IMG/VR virus record: IMGVR_UViG_3300022666_000111
DNA length: 64,000 nt
Source of the DNA: a virus
Taxonomy: Duplodnaviria > Caudoviricetes
Reading direction: 5' to 3' (one strand)
The notes under the pieces were generated by a model. That model had not been told where the DNA came from and searched no databases. It saw only the letters and a list, made by a program, of their open reading frames with translations. The position numbers were made by a program, and so were the translations under genes. Every line of letters starts with the position of its first letter. Position 1 is the first letter of the stretch. Shown one piece after another: positions 10,212 through 61,679 of this stretch.

Positions 10212-10904
10212 CTAGAAAAGGTCTTCGTCCATGAGCTTGTCGTAAGCGGTGTGGACGGGGTCGGCGGTCATCCGCGTTGGGGCGACGATCGCGTAGTTCC
10301 AATCGTTGTACAATTCGGGGAGGGCGACCTGGATGAATTCGGGCTCGTTATGAGGGTACGGGCTTCGGGGGAGCCCGAGCGTAACCACGGGGATACGGGC
10401 CATCCTTCCGGGGGCTTCTTCGATGGTGCTTAGGGATGCCACAATCCTGTAAGACTTGCGCATATCCGGGGGCGCCCAGATTTGACCCTCTTCGACGGTG
10501 TGGCAGAGCACGCATTCGTAGTAGAGGTGCTGCTCCTGCGGATCGTCGTAGGACGACGCGAGGTTGCGTCGTTGGAGGTTGTAGCCCTCCCCGTAATGCA
10601 CGCCGACGCCGATGCGGGGTTTCATGAGGTGGATGACGCCTTCGGAATCCCGAAGCCAGCATTCCTTCGTGATCGGCTTTCTGGGGTCAAAGCTAACGTG
10701 CCCCTCATAGACCCAGCCCCGGGCGCCTACGAGAATGAAGCCTCTCCGGAGGTCCGTATTCGAGACACGGACCTCGATGAGGTCACCAATAGGCTCGGGG
10801 CCGAGGATCTGTAGGGTAGCCTGGTCGACGGTGACGAAGTCGATGTCGTGCGACTTGTTTTGGTCGTAGATGTTGAGGATCCGGTGCCGGAGGGTCTTTC
10901 TCAC
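10212..10904 (-). CDS. hypothetical protein
   Basis: 230-aa ORF coupled to the CCA gene; ends TAYDKLMDEDLF. Confidence 0.65.
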   Translation of the reverse strand: MRKTLRHRILNIYDQNKSHDIDFVTVDQATLQILGPEPIGDLIEVRVSNTDLRRGFILVGARGWVYEGHVSFDPRKPITKECWLRDSEGVIHLMKPRIGVGVHYGEGYNLQRRNLASSYDDPQEQHLYYECVLCHTVEEGQIWAPPDMRKSYRIVASLSTIEEAPGRMARIPVVTLGLPRSPYPHNEPEFIQVALPELYNDWNYAIVAPTRMTADPVHTAYDKLMDEDLF

Positions 10905-12247
10905 GGGATCTCCTTGGCGAGGCGGAGGAGGGTTTCACGTTCGTTGAGGGAGGGGTCGTCGGTCACGGATTCGAGGAGTGCATTGAGGACGCGGCCGACG
11001 CGGGGGCCTGGGGCGATCCCGAGGGCCTCCATGACGTCGCGGCCGTTGATGACGAGGACCTTCGTGGAAGTTGGGATGGTCTCCGTCACGCTCATCCGTG
11101 CGACCCGATCGCGGAGGGCGTCGATGAGCGTCTCCTCCAGGGCGACCTTGGCGGGGCCTTTGCCGTCGATGTCTGCGTGGGCCAAGGTGCAGAAGTCGGG
11201 GACGTTGTCGAGCCCAACCTTGCGGACCCAGCGGCGGACGGCGGGGGCGCCGTGGTCAGCTTCGTAGCGGATGTAGTGGTGCCGCACGAAGTGAACGATC
11301 GCTTCCAAGTCTTCCGTGGCGAATCGCAGCCGGGTCAAGATCTCCCGCGTCATGTCAGCCCCTACGACCTCGTGGTTGTAGAAGGTTGCGTCTCCTGTCA
11401 CCGGGTGGGCCTCCTTCACGGCGGGCTTGCCGATGTCATGGAATAGGGCGGCGAAGCGCAGCAAGGGCTTCGTAGCCGGGACACGGTCAAGCGTAACCAA
11501 GGTGTGCTCCCACACGTCGAAGGCGTGGTACTTGTTCTGGGCGCACCCAAAGCTCGCCTTGAATTCCGGAATGAAGACCTCGAGCATCCCCGTCTCCGCC
11601 ATGACGCGGAAGGCGACCGAAGGCTTGACCGAGCCCTTCATGATCTTGAAGAGTTCGTCGTGGACGCGCTCGATCGAGACTTTCGAGAAGACTTCGAGGT
11701 TTGGGCGAATACCCTCGAGGGTCTCGGGTTCGATGCTGAAGCCCAGGGTTGCCGCGAATCGGGCGGCGCGCATGACGCGCAAGCCGTCCTCGTGGAACCT
11801 GCGGCGGGGGTCGCCTACGGCTCGGATGACTTTGTTTGCGATGTCGGCCATACCTCCGAAGGGGTCGACGGTTCGGTCGTCGATCGGGTCGTAGGCGATG
11901 GCGTTCATGGTGAAGTCGCGCCGGGCCAGGTCGTCTTCGATCCGGTCGAGGAAGCTCACAGCGTCGGGGCGTCGTCCGTCCGTGTAGTCCCCGTCCCCAC
12001 GGTACGTCGTCACCTCGAAACCGGTACCGTCCACGATGGCCGTCACGGTTCCATGTTGGATGCCGGTCAGGATGACACGGGGGAAAATGCGGAGCATGAC
12101 TTCTGGGCGGGCGTTGGTAGCGATGTCCCAGTCATGGGCTTCTCGGCCCATGATGAAGTCGCGGATAGCGCCACCGACCAGGAAGGCTTCGTAGCCCTCA
12201 CGGCGGAGGGTCTGGCAGATACGGAGTGCTTCGGGAGGGATTTGCAT
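10901..12247 (-). CDS. cca: CCA tRNA nucleotidyltransferase with HD domain
   Basis: LVGGAIRD, DWDIAT, DLARRDFTMNA, EDGLRVMRAARF, ALFHDIGK; ATG 33 nt after TTGATC. Confidence 0.93.
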   Translation of the reverse strand: MQIPPEALRICQTLRREGYEAFLVGGAIRDFIMGREAHDWDIATNARPEVMLRIFPRVILTGIQHGTVTAIVDGTGFEVTTYRGDGDYTDGRRPDAVSFLDRIEDDLARRDFTMNAIAYDPIDDRTVDPFGGMADIANKVIRAVGDPRRRFHEDGLRVMRAARFAATLGFSIEPETLEGIRPNLEVFSKVSIERVHDELFKIMKGSVKPSVAFRVMAETGMLEVFIPEFKASFGCAQNKYHAFDVWEHTLVTLDRVPATKPLLRFAALFHDIGKPAVKEAHPVTGDATFYNHEVVGADMTREILTRLRFATEDLEAIVHFVRHHYIRYEADHGAPAVRRWVRKVGLDNVPDFCTLAHADIDGKGPAKVALEETLIDALRDRVARMSVTETIPTSTKVLVINGRDVMEALGIAPGPRVGRVLNALLESVTDDPSLNERETLLRLAKEIP

Positions 12248-12276
12248 GGCTCTTGTATGCCGAGCCTCACGGGTGA

Positions 12277-12807
12277 TCAACCCCAATAAACGTAGAGGCC
12301 CTCTTGGAGGCTCGGGATGATCTCTGGTACACCGGCAAGGATGCAGAGGCCGACGACGCCGGGCGAGATTTGTCCGAGGGCGTAGGGATAGAGCCCGTGG
12401 GTGACCTTGTGAAAGCGGGGGCGCTGGCTGTGCCGTTCGGTCTCCTCAATCCAATCCAGCGTTGTGTCGTAGCGGAACCACGATTTGTACTCCAAGGGAT
12501 CGATGAAGAGGGTGAGCCGTTTGAGCCCGAATTCCGGATCGTGCATGACGCATTGGCTCATGCTGTGGAAGGCAGGCTTGTGCTCGGCGGCAATCGCGAT
12601 GTAGAGACTCACGTTGGAAAGCGGTGACTCCCGGGAGTAGCGTGTATCCTTGGGCGCTGGGGTAGCGGCGGCCACGGCGTCCTTGTTCTTCCGGAGCCAC
12701 TTGAGATACTTGGGAAAGTCCATGGCGTAGAGCATCTCCGAGGTCTCTTCGGAGATCTTAGCCTTTCGCGTAGCCCAGCCGATTGCCTTATGGACGCGGA
12801 TTCCCAT
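12277..12807 (-). CDS. hypothetical protein
   Basis: 176-aa ORF with GGAGGAG RBS. Confidence 0.65.
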   Translation of the reverse strand: MGIRVHKAIGWATRKAKISEETSEMLYAMDFPKYLKWLRKNKDAVAAATPAPKDTRYSRESPLSNVSLYIAIAAEHKPAFHSMSQCVMHDPEFGLKRLTLFIDPLEYKSWFRYDTTLDWIEETERHSQRPRFHKVTHGLYPYALGQISPGVVGLCILAGVPEIIPSLQEGLYVYWG

Positions 12808-28490: not shown

Positions 28491-28956
28491 TGGTTCATGT
28501 CTCCGAGAGGTTTCTCTTCCGGGGCTGGTATGCCGGTGGGGTAGAGGGATCAACGTATTTGGGGTGGGGAAATGAATTTGACCGTGAAATCAGATGCTGT
28601 CTTGGCGATCATTGATGCAGAGGTATTGGGACCGAGGGCACCCAGAAAACCGTTGATCACGGAGCCCGTCCGGCATGTTGGGCACATGGAGAGCATCGAC
28701 TTCCAAATCGCAAGAATGGCCCAGGCTTTTGACCTTGGAATCAGCGACGAAGTCGCTGTGAGCATCCTGGCTAAGGATGACATCACGGGGGCCGCCGCCT
28801 TCTACATCATCCAGGCTGCGCACCTGCTATCAAACGATCGCGGGTGAATTCCCTGGCGCCAAGGTTCGGAACGGTGTAGGTAATGCCCGTGCCGTAACTT
28901 TGGCCCACACGGGCATGCTGGCAACACTTGGCGGCTTCGGCCGCATGGAGGATCAA

Positions 28957-30540
28957 ATGGCAAGCAAGATTCTGTTCCCAGGGGCGAAGCCGTCTGTTCA
29001 GGCGGCGGACACGGTCAACGAGGCGGGTGGGGCGGCGTACCAGATGACGCCAAAGATGGCCCTGGCTCAATTGGCGGTGACGGGGTGCCTGTCCAATACG
29101 TACTACGTGTCGGACAAGATGCAGCTCGAGGCCGTCTTGAACGCAGCCGTCGCGTGCGATCCGGAGTACGTTGCGAAGGTGGCGCTCTACGCACACGAGA
29201 AGGGCTTCATGAAGGACATGCCTGCGGTTCTTGCGGCCTACCTGGCTGCGATGAATGGGGCGCTCCTCGAGCCCATCTTCCCGCGTGTCATCAACAACGG
29301 CAAGATGCTCCGCAACTTCGTCCAGGTCATCCGGTCTGGCGCGTTGGGGCGCAAGAGCTTCGGAACGCGTCCGAAGAGGATGATCCAGAGCTGGTTCGAG
29401 AGCCGTAAGGACGGCGTGGTCTTCACGAACTCCACGGGTAACGATCCGTCGATGGCGGACGTTATCAAGCTCATCCGGCCGGTTCCGGGGACGGTGGAGC
29501 GTTCGGCGCTCTATGCCTACCTGCTTGGGAAGGACAAGTTCAAGTTCCAGGGGCAGGAGCTGGTGACGTCGGAGCATGTTCCGGAAGAGGTCAAGAGCTT
29601 CCTGGCATTCAAGGCGGACCCGGCCAAGGTTGCTGTCCCGGAGAAGGGTGTCCCCTTCGAGATGCTCGTCGGTGTTGAGGGCATCACGGAGAAGGGCTGG
29701 AAGCAGCTTGCGGAGAGGGCTACGTGGACGCAGCTCCGTATGAACCTCAACACGTTCCTGCGTCACGGGGTCTTCTCGGACAAGAGGCTCACCAAGAAGC
29801 TGGCCGACAAGCTCGGATCGGCGGAAGAGGTTGCGAAGGCACACTGCTTCCCCTACCAGCTCCTGGCGGCCTACAAGAACGTGGGTACGGAGATGCCCAC
29901 GGAGATCACCCTGGCGTTGCAGGACGCCTTGGAGGCTGCTACCAAGAACATCCCGGTGTTCGCGGGTTCGGTCGTGATTTGCCCGGACGTTTCGGGCTCC
30001 ATGTCAGCCTACGTCACGGGACGTCAGGGCAGCAAGACGCCTTCGAAGGTCACCTGCATTGACGTTGCAGCCTTGGTTGCAGCGAGCGTCTTGAGGACCA
30101 ACCAGACTGCGAGGGTCATCCCCTTCGAGCAGAGCGTGGTTGGCGTCAAGGTCAATCCTCGCGATTCGGTCATGACGAACGCGCAGAAGCTTTCGTCCAT
30201 CGGCGGAGGCGGGACCAACTGCTCGGCGCCCCTGGCCTTGCTCAACAAGGAGAACGCCGCGCCGGATGTGGTCATCTTCATCTCGGACTACGAGTCATGG
30301 GTTGATCGTGAGTACGGGCACGGTACTGGGATGCTCACGGAGTGGCAGCAGATCGTCAAGCGTAACCCCAAGGCCAAGCTGATCTGCATCGACGTGACGC
30401 CTTCGTCCACGCACCAGGTCCCAAGTCGTCCTGGGATCCTTCAGGTCGGCGGGTTCTCGGACGAGGTCTTCAACGTCATCGGGGCCTTCGTCTCCGGCGA
30501 CGCCTCGAGTTGGGTTGCCTCGATCGAATCCTACAAATAG
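28957..30540 (+). CDS. Ro60/Rsr TROVE-vWA RNA-binding protein
   Basis: NEAGGAAY, LAQLAVTGC, MKDMPA, MLRNFVQ, LRMNLNTFLRHG, FPYQL, vWA DVSGSM, GGGTNC, SDYESW. Confidence 0.93.
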   Translation: MASKILFPGAKPSVQAADTVNEAGGAAYQMTPKMALAQLAVTGCLSNTYYVSDKMQLEAVLNAAVACDPEYVAKVALYAHEKGFMKDMPAVLAAYLAAMNGALLEPIFPRVINNGKMLRNFVQVIRSGALGRKSFGTRPKRMIQSWFESRKDGVVFTNSTGNDPSMADVIKLIRPVPGTVERSALYAYLLGKDKFKFQGQELVTSEHVPEEVKSFLAFKADPAKVAVPEKGVPFEMLVGVEGITEKGWKQLAERATWTQLRMNLNTFLRHGVFSDKRLTKKLADKLGSAEEVAKAHCFPYQLLAAYKNVGTEMPTEITLALQDALEAATKNIPVFAGSVVICPDVSGSMSAYVTGRQGSKTPSKVTCIDVAALVAASVLRTNQTARVIPFEQSVVGVKVNPRDSVMTNAQKLSSIGGGGTNCSAPLALLNKENAAPDVVIFISDYESWVDREYGHGTGMLTEWQQIVKRNPKAKLICIDVTPSSTHQVPSRPGILQVGGFSDEVFNVIGAFVSGDASSWVASIESYK

Positions 30541-30956: not shown

Positions 30957-31214
30957 ATGGCGACGGTCTACAAGATCCGGGACAAGGCAACGGGGCTTTT
31001 CTCAACGGGAGGCTACAACCCAACCTTCGAGAAGAAGGGCAAGGAGTGGAAGGCGTTACAGCACGTCCGTAGCCACCTGACGCAGCTATCGGCTAGCTGG
31101 ATCGGCCCCAAGAAAGCCATCCCGCCCTCTTGGGAGATCGTGGAGTACGAGGTCGTCAAGACGGAAGTAGGGGTCCTCCCCGCTCTGCCCTACCGGAAAG
31201 AGAGAACGCGATGA
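30957..31214 (+). CDS. hypothetical protein
   Basis: 85-aa ORF with GAGGT RBS. Confidence 0.65.
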   Translation: MATVYKIRDKATGLFSTGGYNPTFEKKGKEWKALQHVRSHLTQLSASWIGPKKAIPPSWEIVEYEVVKTEVGVLPALPYRKERTR

Positions 31215-32308
31215 CATTCGAATGGAACATGCCTCCAGGGGCGCTCCCCTGGGTGAAAGACCGGACCTTCTACCTTACGCGCCACGGATCGCACGCCTAT
31301 GGCACGAACCTCCCGACATCCGATATGGACATCCGGGGGATCTGCATCGCGCCCAAGGAGTACTACCTCGGCTACGACCTTCACTTCGATCAGACGTCGT
31401 CGGCGACAACCTCTGACGACGTGGCCCCGGACTTCGTCATCTTCGAGCTTCGCAAGTTCATGAAGCTCGCGGCGGTTTGCAATCCGAACGCCTTGGAGAT
31501 CATCTTCACGGATCCTTCGGATCACCTGTTCGTGACGGCGACATCGAAGCGGCTTTTTGAATGCCGCGACATGTTCCTCTCGCGTTTGGCCTTGAGAACG
31601 TTCTCGGGGTATGCCGCGTCGCAGATGCGGCGGATTGAGGGGCACTACCGATGGCTCAAGAATCCTCCAACCAAGAAGCCGGAGCGATCGGACTTTGAAT
31701 TGCCGCCCCAACCGGAGATCCCAACGGAGCAATTGGAGGCCGTCAACGCCGGGATCCAGAAGAAGCTCGACCAATGGAACATGAATTTCCTCCAAGACCT
31801 TGAGCCCGCCTACCGGATCGAGATCAAGGAGGCCATGTTCGAGATGCTCACCGAGATGCAGATCCACATGGACGACTTGTGGAAGGGCGCGGCGAGGTCC
31901 TTCGGTTTCGACGAGAACTTCATCGAGTATCTCAAGCGGGAGCGTCAATTCACGGCGAAGGCCCGGGAGTGGAAGAAGTATCAGAAGTGGCTCAAGGAGC
32001 GAAACCCTGCGCGGGCCGCCTTGGAGGCAAAGTGGGGCTACGATACGAAGCACGCCATGCACCTCATCCGGCTCTTGCGAATGTGCCGGGAGATCCTAAC
32101 GGAGGGCGTCTTGCGGGTACGGCGCCCAGACGCGGCCGAGCTTCTTGAGGTGCGTAACGGCGCCTGGAGCTACGAGAGCCTCGTTGCTTGGGCAAACCAG
32201 CAAAACTACGAGCTTGCCCAGATCGTTCTAACCAGCCCTCTTCCCGCAAGGCCGGACAACCGTGCTCTTGACTCCCTCTGCATTGAGCTTGTCTCTTCGG
32301 CCCTTTAG
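31211..32308 (+). CDS. Pol-beta superfamily nucleotidyltransferase (RlaP-like, RNA repair)
   Basis: GSHAYGTNLPTSDMDIRG, NPNALE, GYDTKHAMHLIRLL. Confidence 0.88.
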   Translation: MTFEWNMPPGALPWVKDRTFYLTRHGSHAYGTNLPTSDMDIRGICIAPKEYYLGYDLHFDQTSSATTSDDVAPDFVIFELRKFMKLAAVCNPNALEIIFTDPSDHLFVTATSKRLFECRDMFLSRLALRTFSGYAASQMRRIEGHYRWLKNPPTKKPERSDFELPPQPEIPTEQLEAVNAGIQKKLDQWNMNFLQDLEPAYRIEIKEAMFEMLTEMQIHMDDLWKGAARSFGFDENFIEYLKRERQFTAKAREWKKYQKWLKERNPARAALEAKWGYDTKHAMHLIRLLRMCREILTEGVLRVRRPDAAELLEVRNGAWSYESLVAWANQQNYELAQIVLTSPLPARPDNRALDSLCIELVSSAL

Positions 32309-53480: not shown

Positions 53481-53551
53481 TGAGGCATCGTCCAATGGTA
53501 GGACACCCGGCTCTGACCCGGTGAATTTAGGTTCAACTCCTTATGCCTCAG
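53481..53551 (+). tRNA. tRNA-Gln(CUG)
   Basis: cloverleaf; loop CTCTGAC. Confidence 0.85.
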
Positions 53552-53777: not shown

Positions 53778-53849
53778 TCCTGGGTCGCTCAATGGTAGAG
53801 CATGCGGCTGTTAACCGCACATGTGGGGGTTCGATTCCCTCCCCAGGAG
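53778..53849 (+). tRNA. tRNA-Asn(GUU)
   Basis: cloverleaf; loop CTGTTAA. Confidence 0.9.
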
Positions 53850-53934
53850 CCGCAGCCTCGGCTGGTATTGCGTAAGCGTACCCTGTGGCTGCCCTTTCTT
53901 GTTGATCCTCGTCAACCACCGGCATAGGAGGGAC

Positions 53935-54102
53935 ATGCGTACCTACGTATCATGCAACTGCCGCTACTGTCGACGCTGCTCCACTGCGGTCCGCCGCATC
54001 CACAAGGATATGGCCCACCGCGCGATGCGCCGGGCTTCCAAGGAGGCGATTCGCAAGGGCACGGACGCGCCCTTGAGCGTCGCGACGGGCTACAAGGATT
54101 GA
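53935..54102 (+). CDS. small basic Cys-rich protein
   Basis: ATG 33 nt after TTGATC (53902). Confidence 0.55.
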   Translation: MRTYVSCNCRYCRRCSTAVRRIHKDMAHRAMRRASKEAIRKGTDAPLSVATGYKD

Positions 54103-54106
54103 AGGC

Positions 54107-54209
54107 GTAGGCCGCCTCATAGAGCCTCCTCACGGGCTCAAACCAAACGGGTAAGGATTGAGCCTCTGAACCCGGGAGGGACGTGAGAGGGCACTATGAG
54201 GCGGTCTGC
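54107..54209 (+). ncRNA. unknown structured RNA
   Basis: GGCCGCCTCATAG/CTATGAGGCGGTC and CTCACG/CGTGAG helices plus GGCTCAA/TTGAGCC hairpin. Confidence 0.55.
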
Positions 54210-54215
54210 AAACAT

Positions 54216-54288
54216 GCTGATGATGCTCGTAAGGACGAGCGCCGCATTCGTAAAGCGGACCAAGCGGGTTCGATTCCCGCCATCAGCT
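54216..54288 (+). tRNA. tRNA-Thr(CGU)
   Basis: cloverleaf; loop TTCGTAA. Confidence 0.85.
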
Positions 54289-54290
54289 CC

Positions 54291-54392
54291 GGTCGAATGA
54301 CCCTCGGGATTACACTATCCAAACCAGGCACGGGGGTTTAGTCACCCTCAAGCGGTGAAAATCCGCGCCAATCTCGGGACATCTTGTCGACC
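54291..54392 (+). ncRNA. Y-RNA-like element Y1
   Basis: GGTCGA-ATG...GGGATTACAC...AATCTCGGG...CTTG-TCGACC. Confidence 0.75.
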
Positions 54393-54396
54393 CTAC

Positions 54397-54468
54397 GGCC
54401 TTGTCTGCTAACGGTAGGCAACTAGGTTCTCACCCTAGAAATGCCGGGTTCAACTCCCGCCAAGGTCA
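54397..54468 (+). tRNA. tRNA-Glu(CUC)
   Basis: cloverleaf; loop TTCTCAC. Confidence 0.8.
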
Positions 54469-54470
54469 CC

Positions 54471-54543
54471 GACGCCGAATGCAGGTAGGAGTACATTCGA
54501 TTCGTACTCGACAAACCCTCTTACCGTCCCACTTGACGGCGTC
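54471..54543 (+). ncRNA. Y-RNA-like element Y2 (anticodon stem-loop cargo)
   Basis: GACGCCG-AATG...GGAGTACAT-TCGA[TTCGTAC]TCGA...CTTGA-CGGCGTC. Confidence 0.75.
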
Positions 54544-54548
54544 TATTT

Positions 54549-54619
54549 GGTTCTGTCGGCTAACAGTAAGCCATCCTCCCGGAGGGAGGGGAATGCAGGT
54601 TCATCTCCTGCCGGAGCCC
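54549..54619 (+). tRNA. atypical or pseudo tRNA
   Basis: cloverleaf with non-canonical anticodon loop CCGGAGG and T-loop TTCATCT. Confidence 0.45.
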
Positions 54620-54623
54620 CCAT

Positions 54624-54694
54624 GGTCCCATCGACTAGCGGTAGGTCACCACCCTTTCAAGGTGTGAACACGGGTTCGATTCCCGTTGGGATCG
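54624..54694 (+). tRNA. tRNA-Glu(UUC)
   Basis: cloverleaf; loop CTTTCAA. Confidence 0.9.
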
Positions 54695-54698
54695 CTAT

Positions 54699-54774
54699 GC
54701 CAGAGAAGCTCAAGCGGTAGAGCGACGGTCTGAAAAGCCGTGCGTAGTGGGTTCGACTCCCACCTCTGGCACCA
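54699..54774 (+). tRNA. tRNA-Phe(GAA)
   Basis: cloverleaf; loop CTGAAAA; encoded CCA. Confidence 0.9.
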
Positions 54775-54775
54775 A

Positions 54776-54915
54776 GTATCGAATGCGGTAGGGACTACAC
54801 GTCTCCCGCCACCCGCCCTTGAGGTCGCCTTCGAGGTCGGATGGGGAGATGCGTGAGCTACCCGGTTCCAACCCGGGCCAGCAGCGACATTGTCTTGGCC
54901 ACGTCTTGTCGATAC
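54776..54915 (+). ncRNA. Y-RNA-like element Y3
   Basis: GTATCGA-ATG...GGGACTACAC...GTCTT...CTTG-TCGATAC. Confidence 0.75.
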
Positions 54916-54919
54916 TCTT

Positions 54920-54991
54920 AGGTGCGTCATCCAACGGCTAGGATGCTGGTTTCCAACTCCAGTCATGAGGGTTCAAATCCTTCCGCGCCTG
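54920..54991 (+). tRNA. tRNA-Trp(CCA)
   Basis: cloverleaf; loop TTCCAAC. Confidence 0.75.
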
Positions 54992-54992
54992 C

Positions 54993-55144
54993 TGCGACGA
55001 ATGCTTGTGAGGATTACATTCCCTTCTAAGGACGTGGACCCTGTTCGAATCAGGGCTGGGGCACCAAGGCGCAAGCCTAGCAACATGCCTCGGAGGTGTA
55101 CTGGCTGCACACGAAAACAGTCTTCGCGCCTCTTTGTCGTCGCA
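54993..55144 (+). ncRNA. Y-RNA-like element Y4 (permuted tRNA-Arg(UCU) cargo)
   Basis: TGCGACGA-ATG...CTTCTAA, T-arm, CTGGGGC-ACCA, linker, GCCTCGG, D-arm...TTTG-TCGTCGCA. Confidence 0.8.
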
Positions 55145-55149
55145 ACAAC

Positions 55150-55377
55150 TTCACCGAATGCCTTGAGGGTCTACACTCAAATGAGGCCGGTTTCGTTCAA
55201 GAGCTGGTGCTATGTTGGTGGCACCGAGTCAACACGCAGTAGCTTTGACTCCCAGAGGGTGGGCTTAGAGGCAGCCATCCCTTAAAGAAAGCGTAGCAGC
55301 TCACTGGGATAGCCAGACGTGAAGGCCGCTCTTGGCCGGACTGGTTTAACACTGACTCTCGCACATTTGTCGGTGGA
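55150..55377 (+). ncRNA. Y-RNA-like element Y5 carrying a 23S rRNA L11-binding domain mimic
   Basis: TTCACCGA-ATG...GAGGGTC-TACAC...GACTCTC...TTTG-TCGGTGGA. Confidence 0.75.
55251..55308 (+). other. 58-nt mimic of 23S rRNA H43/H44 (nt 1051-1108)
   Basis: CCCAGAGGGTGGGCTTAGAGGCAGCCATCCCTTAAAGAAAGCGTAGCAGCTCACTGGG. Confidence 0.88.
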
Positions 55378-55411
55378 AAGGGCCAACCTCCCAACAAGGG
55401 CAGGCCCACAT

Positions 55412-55487
55412 CGGGGTGATGGCTTGTTGGTAAGCCGCCAGTTTTGGGTACTGGAACTTGGGGGTTCGACTCCCCCCATCCCGACCA
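55412..55487 (+). tRNA. tRNA-Pro(UGG)
   Basis: cloverleaf; loop TTTGGGT; encoded CCA. Confidence 0.85.
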
Positions 55488-55491
55488 TCAT

Positions 55492-55566
55492 CAGGGTGTG
55501 GCTCAGCCTGGCAAGAGCGCCACGTTGGGGACGTGGAGATCGGCGGTTCAAATCCGCCCATCCTGA
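55492..55566 (+). tRNA. tRNA-Pro(GGG)
   Basis: cloverleaf; loop TTGGGGA. Confidence 0.9.
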
Positions 55567-55628
55567 CTACGGTTGGTTCACCGACCACTTTCTCATTGAT
55601 CAGTCCTGGGACGCGGCATACTAGGATC

Positions 55629-56027
55629 ATGGAAAGCATCAAGACTACCGTAACCAACCTCACCAACGACCTCATCGCCAACGTATCCAAGGCGGACACC
55701 CGCGATTGGTACGAGGATAAGCCCTCTTGGGAAGAGATGATGTCCTTGCGCGACCGGCTCTACATTGAATCCGACTCGGTCGAAGCCACAAGAAAGTATC
55801 TCGAGGCATCCATAGTAAACCTTGAGGATCTCGACGGTATGGATCCCCTCGCGGATCTCTTGTGTCAAGCGCACGCCTTGGCCCCCTCCCTTGCGGATAT
55901 GGTTGTCACGATCAAGGCGACCCTGACGCTACTTGCGGCTGAAATCGACGCGATCGAAGACGCTATGGAGACCGTTCGCAAGGCTTACGCGCACCTTCCC
56001 GAGGGTGCAGGTTCCGATACCAACTAA
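55629..56027 (+). CDS. hypothetical protein
   Basis: ATG 33 nt after TTGATC (55596). Confidence 0.6.
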   Translation: MESIKTTVTNLTNDLIANVSKADTRDWYEDKPSWEEMMSLRDRLYIESDSVEATRKYLEASIVNLEDLDGMDPLADLLCQAHALAPSLADMVVTIKATLTLLAAEIDAIEDAMETVRKAYAHLPEGAGSDTN

Positions 56028-56055
56028 CGGTCAAATGGTGTAGATTCCCCTCACC

Positions 56056-56385
56056 ATGGGAATCTACACCAACGCCATCCGCGCTTTAAGGCGCGGCAAG
56101 ACCGTCGAAGTCGAAGTCACCAGCAGCAACCTCGCCCCCAGATTTCCCCAAGGAACCAAGCTGACTCTCTTCCCCCCGAAGGAGACGACGGTCTTCTCCG
56201 TTGGGGACGTCCTTCTCTACCGTGACGGTGACCGCGATAGGCTTCTCTTCGTGAAGGCCGTCTCGGTTGGACGGTTGAAGCTAGGCACCACCACGAAGAA
56301 CCTCGAGGGCTGGGCGGCGCGATCAAGTGTTTTGGGGTATGCGAATCTCGTCGTTCTAGACGGTGACGGTAGCAAGATCAAGTGA
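56056..56385 (+). CDS. S24/S26 peptidase-like fold protein, probably inactive
   Basis: VEVTSSNLAPRF...SVGDVLLY...EGW....VLG. Confidence 0.45.
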   Translation: MGIYTNAIRALRRGKTVEVEVTSSNLAPRFPQGTKLTLFPPKETTVFSVGDVLLYRDGDRDRLLFVKAVSVGRLKLGTTTKNLEGWAARSSVLGYANLVVLDGDGSKIK

Positions 56386-56634
56386 TCCCTTTGGGCCTTC
56401 GATGACGCCGTCCTCGTTGACGGGCCAACCCTTTTGAAGCGCAAGGCGAAGGATCTCGGTGAGGTCACCTCGCTTGGCGACCATCTTGTCGGCGATGTCC
56501 TTGGCTACGCCTCCGCTTACGCCGACGCCTCGGATGAGTTCCATGATTCGATTGCGCTTGGTCTCGGGCTTCTCCTTGTAGAGGGATGCCGCATAGCGCC
56601 GAGCGACTCGTTTTGCTATGGCATTCGTGTCCAT
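56356..56634 (-). CDS. hypothetical protein with N-terminal RVARRY motif
   Basis: 92-aa ORF. Confidence 0.6.
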   Translation of the reverse strand: MDTNAIAKRVARRYAASLYKEKPETKRNRIMELIRGVGVSGGVAKDIADKMVAKRGDLTEILRLALQKGWPVNEDGVIEGPKGSLDLATVTV

Positions 56635-56680
56635 GACATTTCCTGCCCATAAGGGCTTTCTCCTTCTAGATGAGGATCAG

Positions 56681-57190
56681 ATGAAAATCACCGGCTACAA
56701 GCTCCGTGAGGCAATCAAGCAGCAAGAGCTGCTGCGGGACACAGCAGCCAGCATGTTCGATGACACCCTCAAGGTCTTCCCCGGGGAGACCAAGTCGGCT
56801 CCGCAGGACGTTGTCAAGGCGTTTCTTGTTGCCGAGACCAACGTAGCAAAGCTCCAGACCGCGCAGATGCGGTTCAACCTGGCCGTCAAGGTTGACATCC
56901 TCGGTGAGAAGATGAGCCTGGCCGAGGCGATCAAGCGGGTTGGCGGGCAAGGCCGCGTCGAGAAGATGTGGCGGTCAGCGGCGAACAGCAAGCGCAAGGA
57001 CCGCTACGGCTACGACGACGATGAGCTTGACCCCACCAAGGTGCGGTCGACCCTGACGATCACTCCGGATGCCGCCGTGAAGCTCGCCTCTTCGGCCGGT
57101 CGTGTTGCTGGCGCCTACCGGGCAGCCATCGCAACGGCCAACGCCCAAGAGGTTGACATTGAAGACGTGACCCCCGAGCTTTTCGAGTAA
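56681..57190 (+). CDS. hypothetical helical protein
   Basis: GAGGA RBS; KMSLAEAIK. Confidence 0.7.
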   Translation: MKITGYKLREAIKQQELLRDTAASMFDDTLKVFPGETKSAPQDVVKAFLVAETNVAKLQTAQMRFNLAVKVDILGEKMSLAEAIKRVGGQGRVEKMWRSAANSKRKDRYGYDDDELDPTKVRSTLTITPDAAVKLASSAGRVAGAYRAAIATANAQEVDIEDVTPELFE

Positions 57191-57434
57191 GGGGTCCAAG
57201 ACTTGGCGGGCTACCCCGCCGCACGGCTTGTCCGTGAAAGAGGCTCCGGCCTCGGTAGCACGATCAGGGTGCATAACCAATTAGGCTAGAGATAGCCTGG
57301 AACGACATTACAACGATGACGATCCCCTACTTCTTCTCGGAAGCTCTTGGGTCGATTGCTTGGCGCCGGGGCGGAAACCTCGGGGGCAACGTTGTCGTAC
57401 AGTCACTCCTTGCTCCTGTTGCCCTGATCATCAT

Positions 57435-57519
57435 GCGGACGTGGCGTAACTAGGCAGCCGCGACAGGTTGAGGGCCTGTTGGGAGAAATCCCGTGGAGGT
57501 TCAATTCCTCTCGTCCGCA
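57435..57519 (+). tRNA. tRNA-Leu(GAG)
   Basis: class II cloverleaf; loop TTGAGGG. Confidence 0.9.
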
Positions 57520-57522
57520 CTA

Positions 57523-57585
57523 CCTCGAATGCTTGTTGGGAGTACATTTGCGAACATGACCCTCTCAACGAATCCCTTGTCGAGG
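57523..57585 (+). ncRNA. Y-RNA-like element Y6 (minimal)
   Basis: CCTCGA-ATG...GTTGGGAG-TACAT...CTCTCAAC...CTTG-TCGAGG. Confidence 0.75.
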
Positions 57586-57592
57586 CTAACTT

Positions 57593-57677
57593 GCGGTCGT
57601 GGCGTAATGGCAGCCGCGCCAGACTCAGGCTCTGGTGGGGTTAAAACCCCGTGGAGGTTCAATTCCTCTCGACCGCA
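57593..57677 (+). tRNA. tRNA-Leu(CAG)
   Basis: class II cloverleaf; loop CTCAGGC. Confidence 0.9.
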
Positions 57678-57682
57678 CTAGT

Positions 57683-57766
57683 GTACTGGTGGTGGAATGG
57701 TAGACACGCACCGTAGAAGGTGTGCCGCTTGCAACGGCTTTGGGGGTTCAACTCCCCTCCAGTATT
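57683..57766 (+). tRNA. tRNA-Leu(UAG)-like with shortened anticodon loop
   Basis: Leu-type D-arm and variable arm; GCACC-GTAGAA-GGTGT. Confidence 0.55.
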
Positions 57767-57773
57767 CAGAGAC

Positions 57774-57848
57774 CGGCCGGTCATCCAACGGTAAAGATAC
57801 GTGCCTGATAAGCACGGCATGGTGGTTCAACTCCACTCCGGCCGACCA
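57774..57848 (+). tRNA. tRNA-Ile(GAU)
   Basis: cloverleaf; loop CTGATAA; encoded CCA. Confidence 0.85.
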
Positions 57849-58004
57849 ATCGCAGATGAATGCAGGGACTACATTTGGAAAACCCGTGCCCTAACGGGCG
57901 GGCAGGTTCGAATCCTGTCGGATCGGCGCAAGCTGGTCCGTGGCGGAGCTGGCAGACGCGCGGGTGCCGCAAGGCATGCTGTCTCTCAAATCCCTTGCTG
58001 CGAT
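57849..58004 (+). ncRNA. Y-RNA-like element Y7 (permuted tRNA-Ser(GGA) cargo)
   Basis: ATCGCAG...GAATG...GGGACTACAT-TTGGAAA-ACCCG, variable arm, T-arm, capped acceptor, D-arm, CGGGT...CTTG-CTGCGAT. Confidence 0.85.
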
Positions 58005-58029
58005 TTTCCTTTGTTGGGACGCTTAGGGT

Positions 58030-58860
58030 ATGGCTTTCCCGAATGCGATCCCCGAGCGTGAGCAGTACATCCTCCAGCAGGTCCAAGCGGGTAACTTCGA
58101 AGCCCGATGGTCTTCGATCGTTTCAACCGCAGGGGACCACACGGCCGTCTTCATCGTCATGGCGGATGCCCTCAAGGTTGACGGCGTCCGGGTCAACGTT
58201 TCAGCCAGGCTGGAACAACAGATCGCGGACGTCCTCAACGCCTCGCTCTTGACGCCGAAGCTCGCCGACCTCATTTGGGCACAGCGCCTTGTCGACGTTG
58301 CCCCCAAGCCTCGAGCGATCACGTCCTCAACTCAAGCCATGCTGGCTCAAAGCCAAGCCTTGGACGCCGCCGTAGCGGGGCAGGACGGGCTTGTTTGCAC
58401 GGTAGGGAAGCATTGGGTCATTGACAAAGACCTCGCGGCTCATCCGGGCAAGGCGGAGAACTACGGCTGGCACTTCCACGGCTCGAGCTTTCAAGGGATC
58501 ACCGGAGAGGTTTGCGCCTCCCTCATGAAGGGTCCCAACGGCGCCTACGTCCGGCTCATCCAAGGACGCGGGTGGGCGCATGATATGAGCCACGTTGACT
58601 ACAGCCAGAATTGCGTGCTTGTCGCCAAGCAATGCTGGGTTGACGGCGCTTTGATGAACCTCTCGGACGTCTTGACCAACCCCGACCTTGCCGCCCTGGC
58701 AAGCCACAACGGGGTCACGACGATCCTTCGGCAGCCCGGGGTCGACACACTTGAATCCATCGAGTACGACCTCGTAGCCTTCCCCGAGGGCCTTGCGCTC
58801 TCGTCACCCCCTGACGGATTCCCGCAATGGGTTCTGGACCTTCTCGGCACTTCATGTTGA
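58030..58860 (+). CDS. hypothetical protein
   Basis: 276-aa ORF with GC3-rich codon usage. Confidence 0.75.
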   Translation: MAFPNAIPEREQYILQQVQAGNFEARWSSIVSTAGDHTAVFIVMADALKVDGVRVNVSARLEQQIADVLNASLLTPKLADLIWAQRLVDVAPKPRAITSSTQAMLAQSQALDAAVAGQDGLVCTVGKHWVIDKDLAAHPGKAENYGWHFHGSSFQGITGEVCASLMKGPNGAYVRLIQGRGWAHDMSHVDYSQNCVLVAKQCWVDGALMNLSDVLTNPDLAALASHNGVTTILRQPGVDTLESIEYDLVAFPEGLALSSPPDGFPQWVLDLLGTSC

Positions 58861-58894
58861 CCGTAGCCTAGTGGTAAGGCGCCTTGACTTTGAA
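58857..58894 (+). pseudogene. tRNA-Gln(UUG) 5' half
   Basis: TTGACCG acceptor strand, D-arm, CTTGA-CTTTGAA, then truncated. Confidence 0.7.
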
Positions 58895-58918
58895 CCATGC
58901 CCGTGCCACTCTTCGTTC

Positions 58919-59425
58919 ATGCATCAACGTTATACGCGGGCGCGTCTTGAAGAGGCTGTGGCTCAAAGCACTTGTTGGGCTGACGTTTGCAGGTACTTCG
59001 GTAGGGCACAATCCGGAGGATCCCGAAACCACATTCAGCGGCGTGTCCGTGAGGAGAACATCTCAACGTGCCATTTTGTTGGGGACGGGCGCGGAATGCA
59101 TTGGGCTAAAGGGGTAGCTCCGCCGAATCGTAAGGCAGCGAAAGACCTTTTGTGCCGTGACGTGGGAAGGAAACGCCCCCCACAAGCCCAACGGCTTCGA
59201 CGCGCCTTGACGGAGCTGGGTGTTCCCTATATCTGCTCGAAGTGCGGTAGCCCACCCATGTGGCAAGGTACCCCTTTACTGTTACAGATTGATCACCGAA
59301 ACGGTAACCGTACGGACAATCGTCCTGAAAATCTTCGGTTCATGTGCCCTAATTGTCATTCTCAAACGGACAACTGGGGCCGAAAAAGTACTTGTGGTGG
59401 CGGTAGCTCAAAGGAAGAGCTTTAG
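58919..59425 (+). CDS. HNH homing endonuclease
   Basis: LQIDHRNGNRTDNRPENLRFMCPNCHSQT; paralog of 25436..26119. Confidence 0.9.
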   Translation: MHQRYTRARLEEAVAQSTCWADVCRYFGRAQSGGSRNHIQRRVREENISTCHFVGDGRGMHWAKGVAPPNRKAAKDLLCRDVGRKRPPQAQRLRRALTELGVPYICSKCGSPPMWQGTPLLLQIDHRNGNRTDNRPENLRFMCPNCHSQTDNWGRKSTCGGGSSKEEL

Positions 59426-59467
59426 GTTGTGGCCCTAAAGATGGGAGTTCGATTCTCCTCCGTCACA
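59397..59467 (+). tRNA. tRNA-His(GUG)
   Basis: cloverleaf; loop TTGTGGC; overlaps the HNH 3' end. Confidence 0.8.
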
Positions 59468-59492
59468 CCGGGTTCGATTCCCGTCGGTCGAC
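59468..59492 (+). pseudogene. tRNA-Gln 3' fragment
   Basis: T-arm plus CGGTCGA, complementary to TTGACCG at 58857. Confidence 0.65.
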
Positions 59493-59525
59493 CCTATCGT
59501 TCTTCTTAAGCAATCCCTTCTGAAG

Positions 59526-59598
59526 GCCCTCGTAGTTCAGCGGACAGAACTCCCCTCTCCTAAAGGGGGTGCCAGAGGTTCGACTCCTCTCGAGGGCG
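59526..59598 (+). tRNA. tRNA-Arg(CCU)
   Basis: cloverleaf; loop CTCCTAA. Confidence 0.9.
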
Positions 59599-59641
59599 CC
59601 TAAAGCGCCTCACGGAGGTTCGAATCCTCCTGGGGGTGCCA
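59599..59641 (+). pseudogene. orphan tRNA 3' half (Arg-like)
   Basis: CCTAA...GGAGG-TTCGAAT-CCTCC-TGGGGGT-GCCA. Confidence 0.65.
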
Positions 59642-59659
59642 TCCGGTGTAGAGATACAT

Positions 59660-59899
59660 GCCCCTGCTGCCGGACGGAACCGGCGTCGGAAAACGGAACC
59701 GAAGGCTTAAACGCTATGGCATGACGAAAGTCGACAAGTAGGGTACGGTTGCGGATGCACCGAACAACGCCTCCCCTGGTAACAGGGTGGACCTAGCCGC
59801 AAATTGCCGTTGTAGGGAAGCGCGTTTACCAACCGAACGTCGAGCCCCTGGTAATGCTTGGGTTCATGACTTGTGCGGGTTCGACTCCCGCCAGGGGCG
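59660..59899 (+). ncRNA. 240-nt RNA with tRNA-like ends and a large internal domain
   Basis: GCCCCTG/CAGGGGC acceptor, D-like hairpin, perfect T-arm GCGGG-TTCGACT-CCCGC. Confidence 0.65.
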
Positions 59900-59921
59900 C
59901 TATCCGGTGTAGACGATCGGC

Positions 59922-60350
59922 ATGCCCATTTACTCAAACTTCGACTTGATGCTTCGAGACATGGTGGGCTACATCCGAACCACGGGGACGGAGATTCTTG
60001 CTTCGGACGATCCCAGGCGACAGCTTATCGGTTTCACCGCTTTGATTGGCGAATACCGATGGGAGATTCCGATGCACGCCATGATGGGGACAACGTCCTT
60101 GGACACCAGTGTGCTTCGAACTTCCGCTGGTCGGATGGCTTTGATTCACGCCTTGGCGGTTCAGGCGCGTGAGGGTGTAATACCTGATGCCTCTTACGTG
60201 AGCCCACATGAGCAGTTCCAACGAACGTGGAATGCTAACGCAGCTCCCCTTCAGCTTGACATTGACACCCCAGAGGAAGAGAAGCCCGCTGAGGAGTCTG
60301 GTCGGACGGCATTTGATAGGCTTCTCGACGACGATAACATGGAGCCATAG
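59922..60350 (+). CDS. hypothetical protein
   Basis: GGTGTAG motif upstream; ends TAFDRLLDDDNMEP. Confidence 0.65.
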   Translation: MPIYSNFDLMLRDMVGYIRTTGTEILASDDPRRQLIGFTALIGEYRWEIPMHAMMGTTSLDTSVLRTSAGRMALIHALAVQAREGVIPDASYVSPHEQFQRTWNANAAPLQLDIDTPEEEKPAEESGRTAFDRLLDDDNMEP

Positions 60351-60417
60351 GGGAGAGGCTGTCCCCGTCTGCCTGTCACGCAGAAGATCGCGGGTTCAAA
60401 TCCCGTTGGTTCCGCCA
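60341..60417 (+). tRNA. tRNA-Asp(GUC)
   Basis: cloverleaf; loop CTGTCAC; encoded CCA. Confidence 0.85.
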
Positions 60418-60551
60418 CGATGAATGCTGCTGGGATTACACTATCCACCCTGGATGTCGCGGGTTCAAGTCCCGTCGCTCGGCCTAGCCGGGTGTGGACC
60501 AGATGGTAGGTCGCCAGGCCAAAACGAATCTCTGCGCGTCTTGTCATCGTG
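60416..60551 (+). ncRNA. Y-RNA-like element Y8 (permuted tRNA cargo, UCC/Gly-like)
   Basis: CACGATGA-ATG...GGGATTACAC-TATCCAC-CCTGG, T-arm, CGCTCGG/CCGGGTG, D-arm, CCAGG...CTTG-TCATCGTG. Confidence 0.85.
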
Positions 60552-60556
60552 ACTAT

Positions 60557-60628
60557 AGAGGTGTACGCATCTGGTGAGGCGATCCGGCTGTCTACCGGAC
60601 GAGGCGGGTTCGATTCCCGTCACCTCTG
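60557..60628 (+). tRNA. tRNA-Asp(GUC)
   Basis: cloverleaf; loop CTGTCTA. Confidence 0.8.
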
Positions 60629-60630
60629 CC

Positions 60631-60765
60631 GACGAATGATCGGTGGACTACACTACCAAGGGGTTCCAACCCCGGCGCCTTGTGGGGGCAGATCCCACCG
60701 TGTTCTGCTTGCGGAGCACGACCGGCATTTAGAAGGGCGCCATACGTCTACCAACCCTTGTCGTC
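60631..60765 (+). ncRNA. Y-RNA-like element Y9
   Basis: GACGA-ATG...GGTGGAC-TACAC...GTCTACC...CTTG-TCGTC. Confidence 0.75.
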
Positions 60766-60771
60766 ACGGTT

Positions 60772-60845
60772 TGCGGAGTGGAGCAGTCTGGCAGCTCGTC
60801 AGCCCCATAAGCTGAAGGTCGGTGGTTCGAATCCACCCTCCGCTT
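60772..60845 (+). tRNA. tRNA-Met(CAU), initiator-like
   Basis: unpaired 1:72, GGAGCAGTCTGGCAGCTC D-arm, loop CCCATAA. Confidence 0.8.
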
Positions 60846-60847
60846 CT

Positions 60848-61342
60848 ATGCTTGCCTGCGTCGATGTTCACTACTTGCCGAACGACGAAGCTCGGGCAGC
60901 CTGCATCATCTTTCCGGATCCTGCAACCGACGTTGTTGCTTGGTCCGGCACGGTGATGGTTCAAGGCGTCGCCCCGTACGTCCCGGGGGCCTTCTATCAG
61001 CGAGAGCTGCCTTGCCTCAAGGCGATCCTCGCGAGGGCACCGGACTTCGATACGATCTTCGTGGATAGCTACGTCAACCTCGGCTCCAAGCCTGGGATGG
61101 GGCAGTACTTGTACGACCTCTATGGGGGCCGCATCGCGGTCATAGGGGTCGCCAAGACGCTCTTCGCGGGCGCACCCTCAGCGGTTGTATCACGCAACGG
61201 GGCGAGCCCCTTGTATGTGACGGCCGCTGGAAAATCCCTTGCGGAGGCTGTGCGAATTGTGACGAGTATGCACGGTCCCTACCGCCTTCCGACACTTCTC
61301 AAGCGCGTTGACTCCCTGTGTCGCGGGCTTGGGCAACCGTAG
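60848..61342 (+). CDS. endonuclease V-like protein
   Basis: CVDVHY, PYVPGAFYQRELP, VDSY, IGVAK, HGPYRLPTLLKRVD. Confidence 0.85.
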   Translation: MLACVDVHYLPNDEARAACIIFPDPATDVVAWSGTVMVQGVAPYVPGAFYQRELPCLKAILARAPDFDTIFVDSYVNLGSKPGMGQYLYDLYGGRIAVIGVAKTLFAGAPSAVVSRNGASPLYVTAAGKSLAEAVRIVTSMHGPYRLPTLLKRVDSLCRGLGQP

Positions 61343-61581
61343 GAGATCACCATGCTGTTCTGGAGGTACACTCCACCCTAGCCTCCTTTCTACCAAGAAA
61401 GGAGGTGCCCATGTGCAAATGGTGTGAACGGGCATCTGAGCTACTTGGTCGGCCCTACATGTGCCGACCTTGCTGGCGTCGGATGTACCGCAACAAGAAG
61501 CGGGCAAAGTGACGACTTGGCCGGTGTGCGCACAACCCTGGCCACCAAGAACATAGCAACGAGGCGCACTTCGTTGCTCAT

Positions 61582-61656
61582 GGGGCCTTAGCTCACTTGG
61601 GAGAGCACAAGACTGGCAGTCTTGGGAAGGGGGTTCGAATCCCCCAGGCTCCACCA
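61582..61656 (+). tRNA. tRNA-Ala(GGC)
   Basis: G3:U70 pair; loop CTGGCAG; encoded CCA. Confidence 0.9.
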
Positions 61657-61679
61657 TCTCCTTGTAATTGCGTCTGGTT

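What the first reader, a model, noticed from the sequence alone, without database searches (positions are those of the whole stretch)
57849..58004. Complete circularly permuted tRNAs retaining anticodons as Y cargo (Ser, Arg, Gly-like)
Seen in Y7: TTGGAAA (GGA anticodon loop), ACCCG, long Ser-type variable arm, T-arm, CGGATCG, GCGCAAGC cap, TGGTCCG, D-arm, CGGGT. This is a tRNA-Ser opened just 5' of the anticodon loop with its acceptor ends joined. Y4 (54993) does the same with a UCU anticodon and still carries ACCA. Y8 (60416) does so with TATCCAC. Known: YrlA has T-arm/acceptor/D-arm order but lacks an anticodon. Inference: these look like nicked-tRNA mimics of defined specificity and evolutionary intermediates showing repeated capture of real tRNAs into the scaffold. 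They could also be precursors for RNase P/Z processing and ligation.
Basis: partly seen in the sequence, partly recalled or inferred. Interest (0 to 1): 0.85.

Follow-up and report, generated by a model that had tools for sequence, protein, structure and literature searches.

The report
Phage Y RNAs keeping tRNA anticodons
A large phage-like genome that encodes the RNA-binding ring protein Ro60 carries three small partner RNAs, each containing a whole tRNA written in rotated order with its anticodon region included; this turns out to be a common but, in the papers I could search, undescribed form of the bacterial 'Y RNAs', and the RNAs mimic the shape of tRNA rather than any one particular tRNA.

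Summary
Real. Re-joined Y7, Y4 and Y8 score 119, 113 and 114 in ARAGORN (native genes 101-125; shuffles at most 94). They are YrlA-type Y RNAs: the window encodes Ro60, and Ro60 lies beside homologues in 71 of 76 bacterial loci.

Y7 is a tRNA-Leu-type body with a Ser(GGA)-like strand that lies open in a junction; six of six parsed homologues also classify as Leu, and only 4 of 8 keep GGA in register. Y8's loop is non-canonical. Y4 is a different design: broken at 28/29, with a closed anticodon hairpin and ACCA.

That closed design is widespread: 59 of 92 homologues have it in exact tRNA register. It carries 41 different anticodons, goes with CCA retention, and occurs in Rhizobium etli and mycobacteriophage Myrna, so the published 'V stem-loop' is probably the anticodon arm. 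Body and anticodon do not agree (5/61, 0/16), so 'defined specificity' fails.

Best reading: Ro60-tethered, non-decoding tRNA-shape mimics, probably acting in RNA repair or counter-defence. No expression data. The scan noted anticodon-bearing YrlA before on other DNA.

The parts
57849..58004 (+). Y7: YrlA-type Y RNA, open-loop design, holding a complete permuted long-arm tRNA (Leu-type body, Ser(GGA)-like loop strand)
57849..57874 (+). Y7 5' scaffold: helix 1 strand 57849-57855, GAUGAAUG (variant of the GNCGAANG Ro60 motif) 57855-57862, helix 2 strand 57864-57869, YUAY, CAU
57875..57926 (+). Y7 tRNA positions 32-73: loop strand, anticodon-stem 3' strand, 15-nt variable arm, T arm, acceptor 3' strand, G73
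57927..57933 (+). Y7 linker closing the acceptor: two extra pairs and a GCAA tetraloop, no CCA
   Evidence: acceptor pairing probability about 1.0
57934..57965 (+). Y7 tRNA positions 1-31: acceptor 5' strand, Leu-type D arm, anticodon-stem 5' strand
57966..57975 (+). Y7 GNRA hairpin directly after position 31, present in 7 of 8 Y7-type RNAs
57976..58004 (+). Y7 3' scaffold (helix 2 partner 57981-57986, CUUG, helix 1 partner 57998-58004); four bases short of the consensus, so the GA of the Ro motif is unpaired
   Evidence: comparison with Y8 by eye
54993..55144 (+). Y4: closed-loop design; tRNA positions 29-76 at 55020-55066 (Arg(UCU) loop, ACCA), 20-nt linker, positions 1-28 at 55087-55113; lacks U8 and A20
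60416..60551 (+). Y8: open-loop design; positions 32-73 at 60442-60483, 4-nt linker, positions 1-31 at 60488-60518; Gly-like body, non-canonical loop; Rfam YrlA 35.8 bits
57774..57848 (+). tRNA-Ile(GAU) whose ACCA end abuts Y7; three tRNA-Leu-type genes lie just upstream (57435-57767)
28777..30540 (+). Ro60/Rsr ortholog (ORF from the first start codon; true start probably later), the inferred protein partner
   Evidence: vWA_Ro60, E 1.7e-20; 48-49% identical to Rhizobium TROVE proteins
31130..32308 (+). RlaP-family nucleotidyltransferase
   Evidence: PF10127, E 5.2e-19
10901..12286 (-). CCA-adding / poly(A) polymerase family enzyme with HD domain

Best explanation
Y7, Y4 and Y8 are non-decoding YrlA-type Y RNAs. 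Inferred steps: each is co-transcribed in the phage tRNA operon and freed at its 5' end when the tRNA in front is processed; its paired ends with the GAAUG/YUAY motifs dock on the phage's Ro60; the middle folds into a full L-shaped tRNA that serves as a tether or decoy for tRNA-reading proteins (tRNA-cutting defence nucleases, repair or decay enzymes). Shown here: two designs exist. In the closed design (Y4) a real anticodon stem-loop shape is conserved while the triplet changes freely, and CCA is often kept, so RNase P cleavage and a free CCA end are likely, as shown for M. smegmatis YrlA. In the open design (Y7, Y8) the acceptor is capped, the anticodon stem is closed by the scaffold, and the former loop is a junction strand that erodes in many homologues; this is the topology of an anticodon-nicked tRNA, but without free ends. 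What is selected is tRNA shape, not the identity of one tRNA species.
For: Rebuild scores against shuffles. Ro60 in the window and within 8 kb in 71/76 bacterial loci. Y8 matches Rfam YrlA over the whole model, and a closed-loop homologue passes the gathering score (L304, 73.1 against 69). A 3-bp/7-nt hairpin in exact register in 59/92 homologues against 0-16 for other geometries; loop has Y32 87%, U33 87%, purine 37 90%, A38 75%. 41 anticodons in 106 RNAs; 24/106 use triplets rare or absent in the real tRNA set. Body and anticodon disagree. NCCA in 25/74 closed against 2/27 open (p 0.01). Y7-type covariation. Literature: YrlA binds Rsr, is modified as tRNA, and in M. smegmatis is cut by RNase P and gains CCA (PMC4201824); a Ro60-like phage protein beside a tRNA cluster counters the ppl defence (PMC11482910).
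Against: Y7 and Y4 give no Rfam YrlA match and Y8 is below the gathering score. Naked-RNA folding does not favour Y7's D and anticodon stems (model -58.7 against -63.7 kcal/mol; z -1.05). Each window copy carries lesions (Y7: four bases missing in helix 1, G15/G48; Y4: no U8; Y8: A33). Many homologues are related, so the counts are not independent events. In one near-identical subfamily 8 of 9 loops are exact real loops (expected 3.6, p about 0.001, chosen after the fact), a hint that identity can matter.
Confidence: 0.62

Rival explanations
1. Isotype-specific decoys: each anticodon loop is bait for a particular anticodon nuclease (or a ligand for a damage sensor such as RtcR), and the triplet turns over in an arms race while the body stays generic.
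For: Nine loops on one near-identical body, 8 of them exact real loops; G36-G37 covariation as in real tRNA (6/9 against 1/39, p 4.5e-5); Y4 and Y7 loops are exact Arg(UCU) and Ser(GGA) loops; RtcB in 35/76 bacterial loci; an engineered tetraloop-capped, permuted tRNA-Leu is an RtcR ligand (PMC10159003).
Against: On unique loops, exact matches do not exceed a column-shuffled null (12/48 against 9.8, p 0.22); A34 in 21-25% of loops; the Y7 and Y8 loops are open strands that shift register or erode in homologues; RtcR needs a 2',3'-cyclic phosphate end, which the intact RNA lacks.
Confidence: 0.18
2. Relics: these particular copies are decaying paralogues; the anticodon-like parts are left over from the tRNA that founded each lineage and serve at most as structural linkers.
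For: Lesions in all three window copies; a graded series of eroded loop strands (2-7 nt) in the open design; Y1 looks like a decayed Y8; the A-rich strand of Y7 could be a three-way-junction linker.
Against: U33, purine 37 and the 7-nt loop size are kept across several phyla; the Y7 type keeps all helices through compensatory changes in 8 genomes.
Confidence: 0.12
3. Permuted tRNA genes: RNase P, 3' trimming and the phage CCA enzyme open the acceptor; the Y handle is cut off and the break ligated (or left as a two-piece tRNA), giving decoding tRNA-Arg/Ser/Gly.
For: All positions 1-73 are present and pair; Y4 has a 7-bp acceptor, ACCA and a leader-like linker; CCA enzyme and RlaP are in the window; no long-arm Ser(GGA), Arg(UCU) or Gly(UCC) gene was called in the window; the idea was raised in 10.1101/312249.
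Against: Anticodon and body disagree, so products would misread; non-ACG A34 triplets are frequent; Y7 lacks the G1-G2:C71-C72 of 46/46 Ser tRNAs and the A73 of 60/60 Leu tRNAs; Y4 lacks U8 and A20; L029 has a normal Ser(GGA) gene beside its Y7-type RNA; no RtcB in the window; the tRNA cluster runs up to the window's end, so missing genes may lie beyond it.
Confidence: 0.06

Closest known systems
YrlA (Rfam RF02553; Chen et al. 2014, PMC4201824; structure in Wang et al. 2018, 10.1101/312249)
   Same: Order T arm, closed acceptor, D arm; GNCGAANG-like 5' motif and YUAY; paired ends; Ro60 in the same genome; present in phages.
   Different: Published as lacking the anticodon loop; the Rfam consensus has only 3 bp of anticodon stem. 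Here the full anticodon stem, a 7-nt loop or loop strand, and a true variable region are present. Y7 has a class II long arm. The genes lie in the tRNA cluster 24-30 kb from Ro60, not within 4 kb.
M. smegmatis / mycobacteriophage YrlA with the 'V' stem-loop (PMC4201824)
   Same: 7-bp acceptor; for Y4 also ACCA. R. etli and phage Myrna YrlA-type RNAs have a 3-bp/7-nt hairpin in anticodon register plus NCCA, and Myrna shares Y4's D stem and a similar T stem.
   Different: The paper reads the hairpin as a variable arm; my register test reads it as the anticodon arm. I could not see its figure or supplement, nor the M. smegmatis sequence. Y7 and Y8 have no such hairpin and no CCA.
Circularly permuted tRNA genes of algae and archaea (as cited in 10.1101/312249)
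   Same: 3' half encoded before the 5' half; acceptor initially closed.
   Different: Those are processed by a splicing endonuclease into decoding tRNAs; such an enzyme is not reported in bacteria (same paper), and here anticodon and body disagree.
Engineered permuted nicked tRNA-Leu(UAG) used as RtcR ligand (PMC10159003)
   Same: tRNA-Leu body, acceptor capped by a tetraloop, opened at the anticodon loop: the same design as Y7's core.
   Different: [quoted passage not shown]

Membership tests
YrlA Y RNA | GNCGAAN0-1G motif near the 5' end | tested here: inconclusive
   Y4 matches (GACGAAUG); Y7 and Y8 have GAUGAAUG, one change from the motif. Y7 also lacks four bases of the partner strand.
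YrlA Y RNA | YUAY before the tRNA-like domain | tested here: met
   CUAC in Y7, UUAC in Y4 and Y8
YrlA Y RNA | T arm, closed acceptor, D arm in permuted order with tRNA invariants | tested here: met
   (Y4 lacks U8; Y7 has G15/G48)
YrlA Y RNA | 5' and 3' ends paired in a long stem | tested here: met
YrlA Y RNA | Ro60/Rsr gene in the same genome | tested here: met
   28777-30540; 71/76 bacterial homologue loci
YrlA Y RNA | Within about 4 kb of the Ro60 gene (typical in Chen 2014, not universal) | tested here: not met
   The elements lie 24-30 kb downstream, in the tRNA cluster, on the same strand
YrlA Y RNA | Rfam RF02553 gathering score 69 | tested here: not met
   Y8 35.8 bits; Y7 and Y4 no hit at E 10; homologue L304 passes with 73.1. 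Filed as a variant, not as a canonical member.
YrlA Y RNA | Binds Ro60; carries tRNA modifications | not testable with these tools
   needs pull-down and modification mapping
tRNA-Ser identity (Y7) | G1-G2:C71-C72 start, Ser-type D arm and variable arm | tested here: not met
   46/46 real Ser have G1G2:C71C72, Y7 has U1.G72; nearest D arms 15/15 Leu; positions 39-65 11/15 Leu; classifier without acceptor Leu -23.0 against Ser -31.7
tRNA-Ser identity (Y7) | G73, long variable arm, Ser anticodon loop | tested here: met
   G73 (43/46 Ser, 0/60 Leu); loop seen 5 times in real Ser(GGA); a Ser triplet is in register in 5 of 8 Y7-type RNAs
Permuted tRNA gene (functional) | Anticodon agrees with body identity across homologues | tested here: not met
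   5/61 (null 2.5) and 0/16
Permuted tRNA gene (functional) | Circular intermediate or mature ligated tRNA | not testable with these tools

The most novel reading that the evidence does not exclude
Closed-loop Y RNAs such as Y4 are matured by RNase P and the CCA enzyme into two-piece, Ro60-tethered tRNAs with an intact, fast-switching anticodon loop and a free CCA end, while open-loop ones such as Y7 and Y8 are permanent nicked-tRNA mimics; together they form an encoded panel of intact-tRNA and damaged-tRNA baits that a phage uses against tRNA-targeting defences.
Probability: 0.2. Interest if true: 0.8.

Novelty: new variant of a known kind. Interest (0 to 1): 0.55.

Why it matters
The effector that binds the tRNA-like domain of YrlA is unknown, and the field's model has no anticodon loop. 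If the 'V' hairpin is the anticodon arm and is tied to CCA retention, the candidates shift towards anticodon nucleases, loop-modifying enzymes, RtcR/RtcB and the ribosome, and this can be tested in cultured strains (Rhizobium etli, Nannocystis exedens, Erythrobacter, phage Myrna). One phage carrying both closed-loop and open-loop designs offers a natural comparison. The Y7 type is also a natural version of the nicked-tRNA mimic that was engineered for RtcR work.

Tried and rejected
Ser identity for Y7: rejected.
Re-permutation of Y1, Y3, Y9: no tRNA above threshold.
Alanine charging as in tmRNA: G3.U70 occurs in 23/53 bacterial closed-loop RNAs against 11/810 real non-Ala tRNAs, but it co-occurs with CCA only at the chance rate (8/74) and relatedness may explain it; kept as a lead only.
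A pattern that selected on the Ser-like loop was too loose and gave mostly unrelated hits; a pattern on the GNRA hairpin gave one known locus and one false hit.
RtcB in the window: no tblastn hit.
Myxococcus phage Mx1 has the closest Ro60 among cultured phages (46%), but my scaffold pattern found no such array in 41.7 kb around it.
No whole genome is held, and sequence beyond 64000 was not recovered.
The Chen 2014 supplement and three Wolin-lab reviews are not held, so prior mention of an anticodon arm there cannot be excluded.

Full report
CONTEXT. The window holds a cluster of 27 called tRNA genes at 52587-63828 plus one at 26088, a Ro60 ortholog (28777-30540), an RlaP nucleotidyltransferase and a CCA-adding-family enzyme. 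Together with thymidine kinase and dCTP deaminase this looks like a large phage; that is inference, as no genome record is held. Eight elements match the pattern GAATG..GGA-N-TACA and a ninth, with a variant motif, is seen by eye at 55150; most lie directly behind a tRNA 3' end. These motifs correspond to the GNCGAAN0-1G and YUAY motifs of YrlA (PMC4201824). Y8 aligns to the whole Rfam YrlA model at 35.8 bits, below the cut-off of 69, with the anticodon region as an insertion.

THE OBSERVATION. Joining 57934-57965 to 57875-57926 gives a cloverleaf that ARAGORN accepts at its default threshold; the same holds for Y4 and Y8. A blind search over all re-joinings gives 119.4, 113.2 and 114.3, within the range of the native genes (100.6-124.8). 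No shuffle of 60 per element exceeded 94.4, and Y1, Y3 and Y9 fail. An assembly from a public run is identical over the region. The three are not alike. Y7 and Y8 are broken at 31/32, so the loop is an open strand. Y4 is broken at 28/29 and has a closed anticodon hairpin and ACCA. For Y8 the blind optimum reads a different triplet, and its loop (A33) occurs in none of 854 real tRNAs.

IDENTITY OF Y7. I trained an isotype classifier on 854 real tRNAs from the fetched loci (leave-one-out 82%; Leu 71/76, Ser 43/47). Without the acceptor, Y7 scores Leu -23.0, Tyr -30.6, Ser -31.7; with it, Tyr and Leu lead and Ser is not in the top five. Its D arm is nearest to Leu in 15 of 15 cases, positions 39-65 in 11 of 15, and it lacks the G1-G2:C71-C72 found in 46/46 Ser tRNAs. 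Only G73 and the loop sequence are Ser-like. Seven further Y7-type RNAs were found in viral and metagenome contigs. The six that parsed all classify as Leu, and four of the seven directly follow a tRNA whose 3' end looks like tRNA-Leu (by eye). Helix 1, the anticodon stem, the variable arm and the T stem show compensatory changes (15 of 30 pairs; MAFFT mis-registers the acceptor, which pairs in each sequence). In register the triplet is GGA in 4 of 8, and UGA, UGG, UGC and GCA once each; the 31:39 pair forms in only 3 of 8. Seven of eight have a GNRA hairpin right after position 31. Inference: the strand is an inherited, Ser-like, A-rich junction strand on a Leu-derived body, not a stable specificity mark.

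THE WIDER FAMILY. Pattern scans found the same scaffold with permuted cores in phage contigs and in genomes of Sphingomonadales, Myxococcota, Planctomycetota, Verrucomicrobiota and Acidobacteriota. Ro60 lies within the 8-kb piece in 71/76 bacterial loci and RtcB in 35/76. Two designs emerge. Closed design: among 92 RNAs with room for it, 59 have a 3-bp stem and 7-nt loop exactly where tRNA numbering puts the anticodon arm, against 0-16 for 39 other geometries; the loop composition mirrors real loops at 32, 33, 37 and 38, and G36 goes with G37. An independent finder gives 106 such RNAs with 41 triplets, 24 of them with triplets rare or absent in the real set. Open design: 4-5 bp of anticodon stem, a strand of 2-7 nt, and an acceptor that is often capped by a short loop. 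NCCA follows the acceptor in 25/74 closed against 2/27 open RNAs, with the same trend in phages and in bacteria. Body class predicts the anticodon in 5/61 and 0/16. These counts are sequences, not independent events.

COMPARISON WITH PRINT. Wang et al. state that YrlA lacks the anticodon loop and already speculate that some YrlA might be processed like permuted tRNAs (10.1101/312249). [quoted passage not shown] The first Y RNA behind the TROVE gene of R. etli, a species in their figure, has a 3-bp hairpin with a 7-nt Asn-like loop in anticodon register, a 7-bp acceptor and UCCA. The mycobacteriophage Myrna RNA has the same design with ACCA and Y4's D stem. A closed-loop homologue passes Rfam's cut-off. 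I infer that the 'V' hairpin is the anticodon arm. I found no paper that says so, but three reviews were not available. Other agents of this scan reached the same view on other DNA; my note of it predates that look-up, and their notes are not independent support.

MECHANISM. Shown: sequence, register, covariation, association with Ro60, lack of isotype agreement. From print: YrlA binds Rsr, is treated as tRNA by modifying enzymes, and associates with PNPase (PMC4201824); nicked tRNAs are RtcR ligands (PMC10159003); a phage Ro60-like protein counters a defence system (PMC11482910); RlaP and CCA enzymes are predicted RNA-repair tools of jumbo phages (PMC7824862). Inferred: release from the tRNA operon, binding to the phage Ro60, display of an L-shaped tRNA as tether or bait; opening by RNase P only for Y4. 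Odds: shape mimic 0.62, isotype-specific decoy 0.18, relic 0.12, decoding permuted tRNA 0.06. Y7's tRNA fold is 5 kcal/mol above the predicted minimum, so its D and anticodon stems rest on covariation and conservation, not on energy. All three copies carry lesions, so partial decay in this genome is possible.

VERDICT. It is a new variant of a known kind, interest 0.55: it revises a stated property of YrlA and makes the effector question testable, but it is widespread rather than special to this phage, the scan has met it before, and the claimed Ser/Arg/Gly specificity does not hold.

Noticed in passing
window:55242-55313: A fragment matching the L11-binding region of 23S rRNA (Rfam LSU, 62.1 bits, model 1083-1154) sits as cargo inside the Y scaffold that starts at about 55150.
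   Followed up: no
window:54290-54392: Y1 begins like Y8 after the scaffold (same TATCCA start, similar stem strand), but no permuted tRNA can be rebuilt; it may be a decayed paralogue.
   Followed up: partly
window:59599-59641: An orphan tRNA 3' half (CCU-type loop start, T arm, acceptor strand, CCA) directly behind tRNA-Arg(CCU).
   Followed up: no
window:59660-59899: An RNA with tRNA-like ends (acceptor, D-like hairpin, T arm) enclosing about 180 nt in place of the anticodon arm.
   Followed up: no
window:26088-26179: A tRNA gene with anticodon UUA (ochre stop) outside the cluster, overlapping the end of an ORF.
   Followed up: no
window:54549-54695: ARAGORN's Ser(gga) and SeC(tca) calls look mis-registered; by eye they read as Arg(CCG)-like and Glu(UUC).
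   Followed up: no
bacterial loci L292-L411: G3.U70, the alanine determinant, occurs in 23/53 closed-loop Y RNAs against 11/810 real non-Ala tRNAs, without coupling to CCA.
   Followed up: partly
L238:691-840 and L243:1875-2025: Y RNAs with a Leu-type body, long arm and a Leu(UAG)-type loop, broken at about 29/30 (by eye): a case where body and anticodon do agree.
   Followed up: no
L293, L299, L301, L302, L304, L305, L309, L325, L327, L331, L382, L387, L395, L401, L402: Fifteen near-identical Y RNA bodies carry nine different anticodon loops, eight of them exact real loops.
   Followed up: yes
L413 (Myxococcus phage Mx1, OR576727.2): Cultured phage with the closest Ro60 (46%), a tRNA cluster, tmRNA, peptidyl-tRNA hydrolase and an annotated RNA ligase, but no match to this scaffold pattern except one candidate near record position 59102.
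   Followed up: partly
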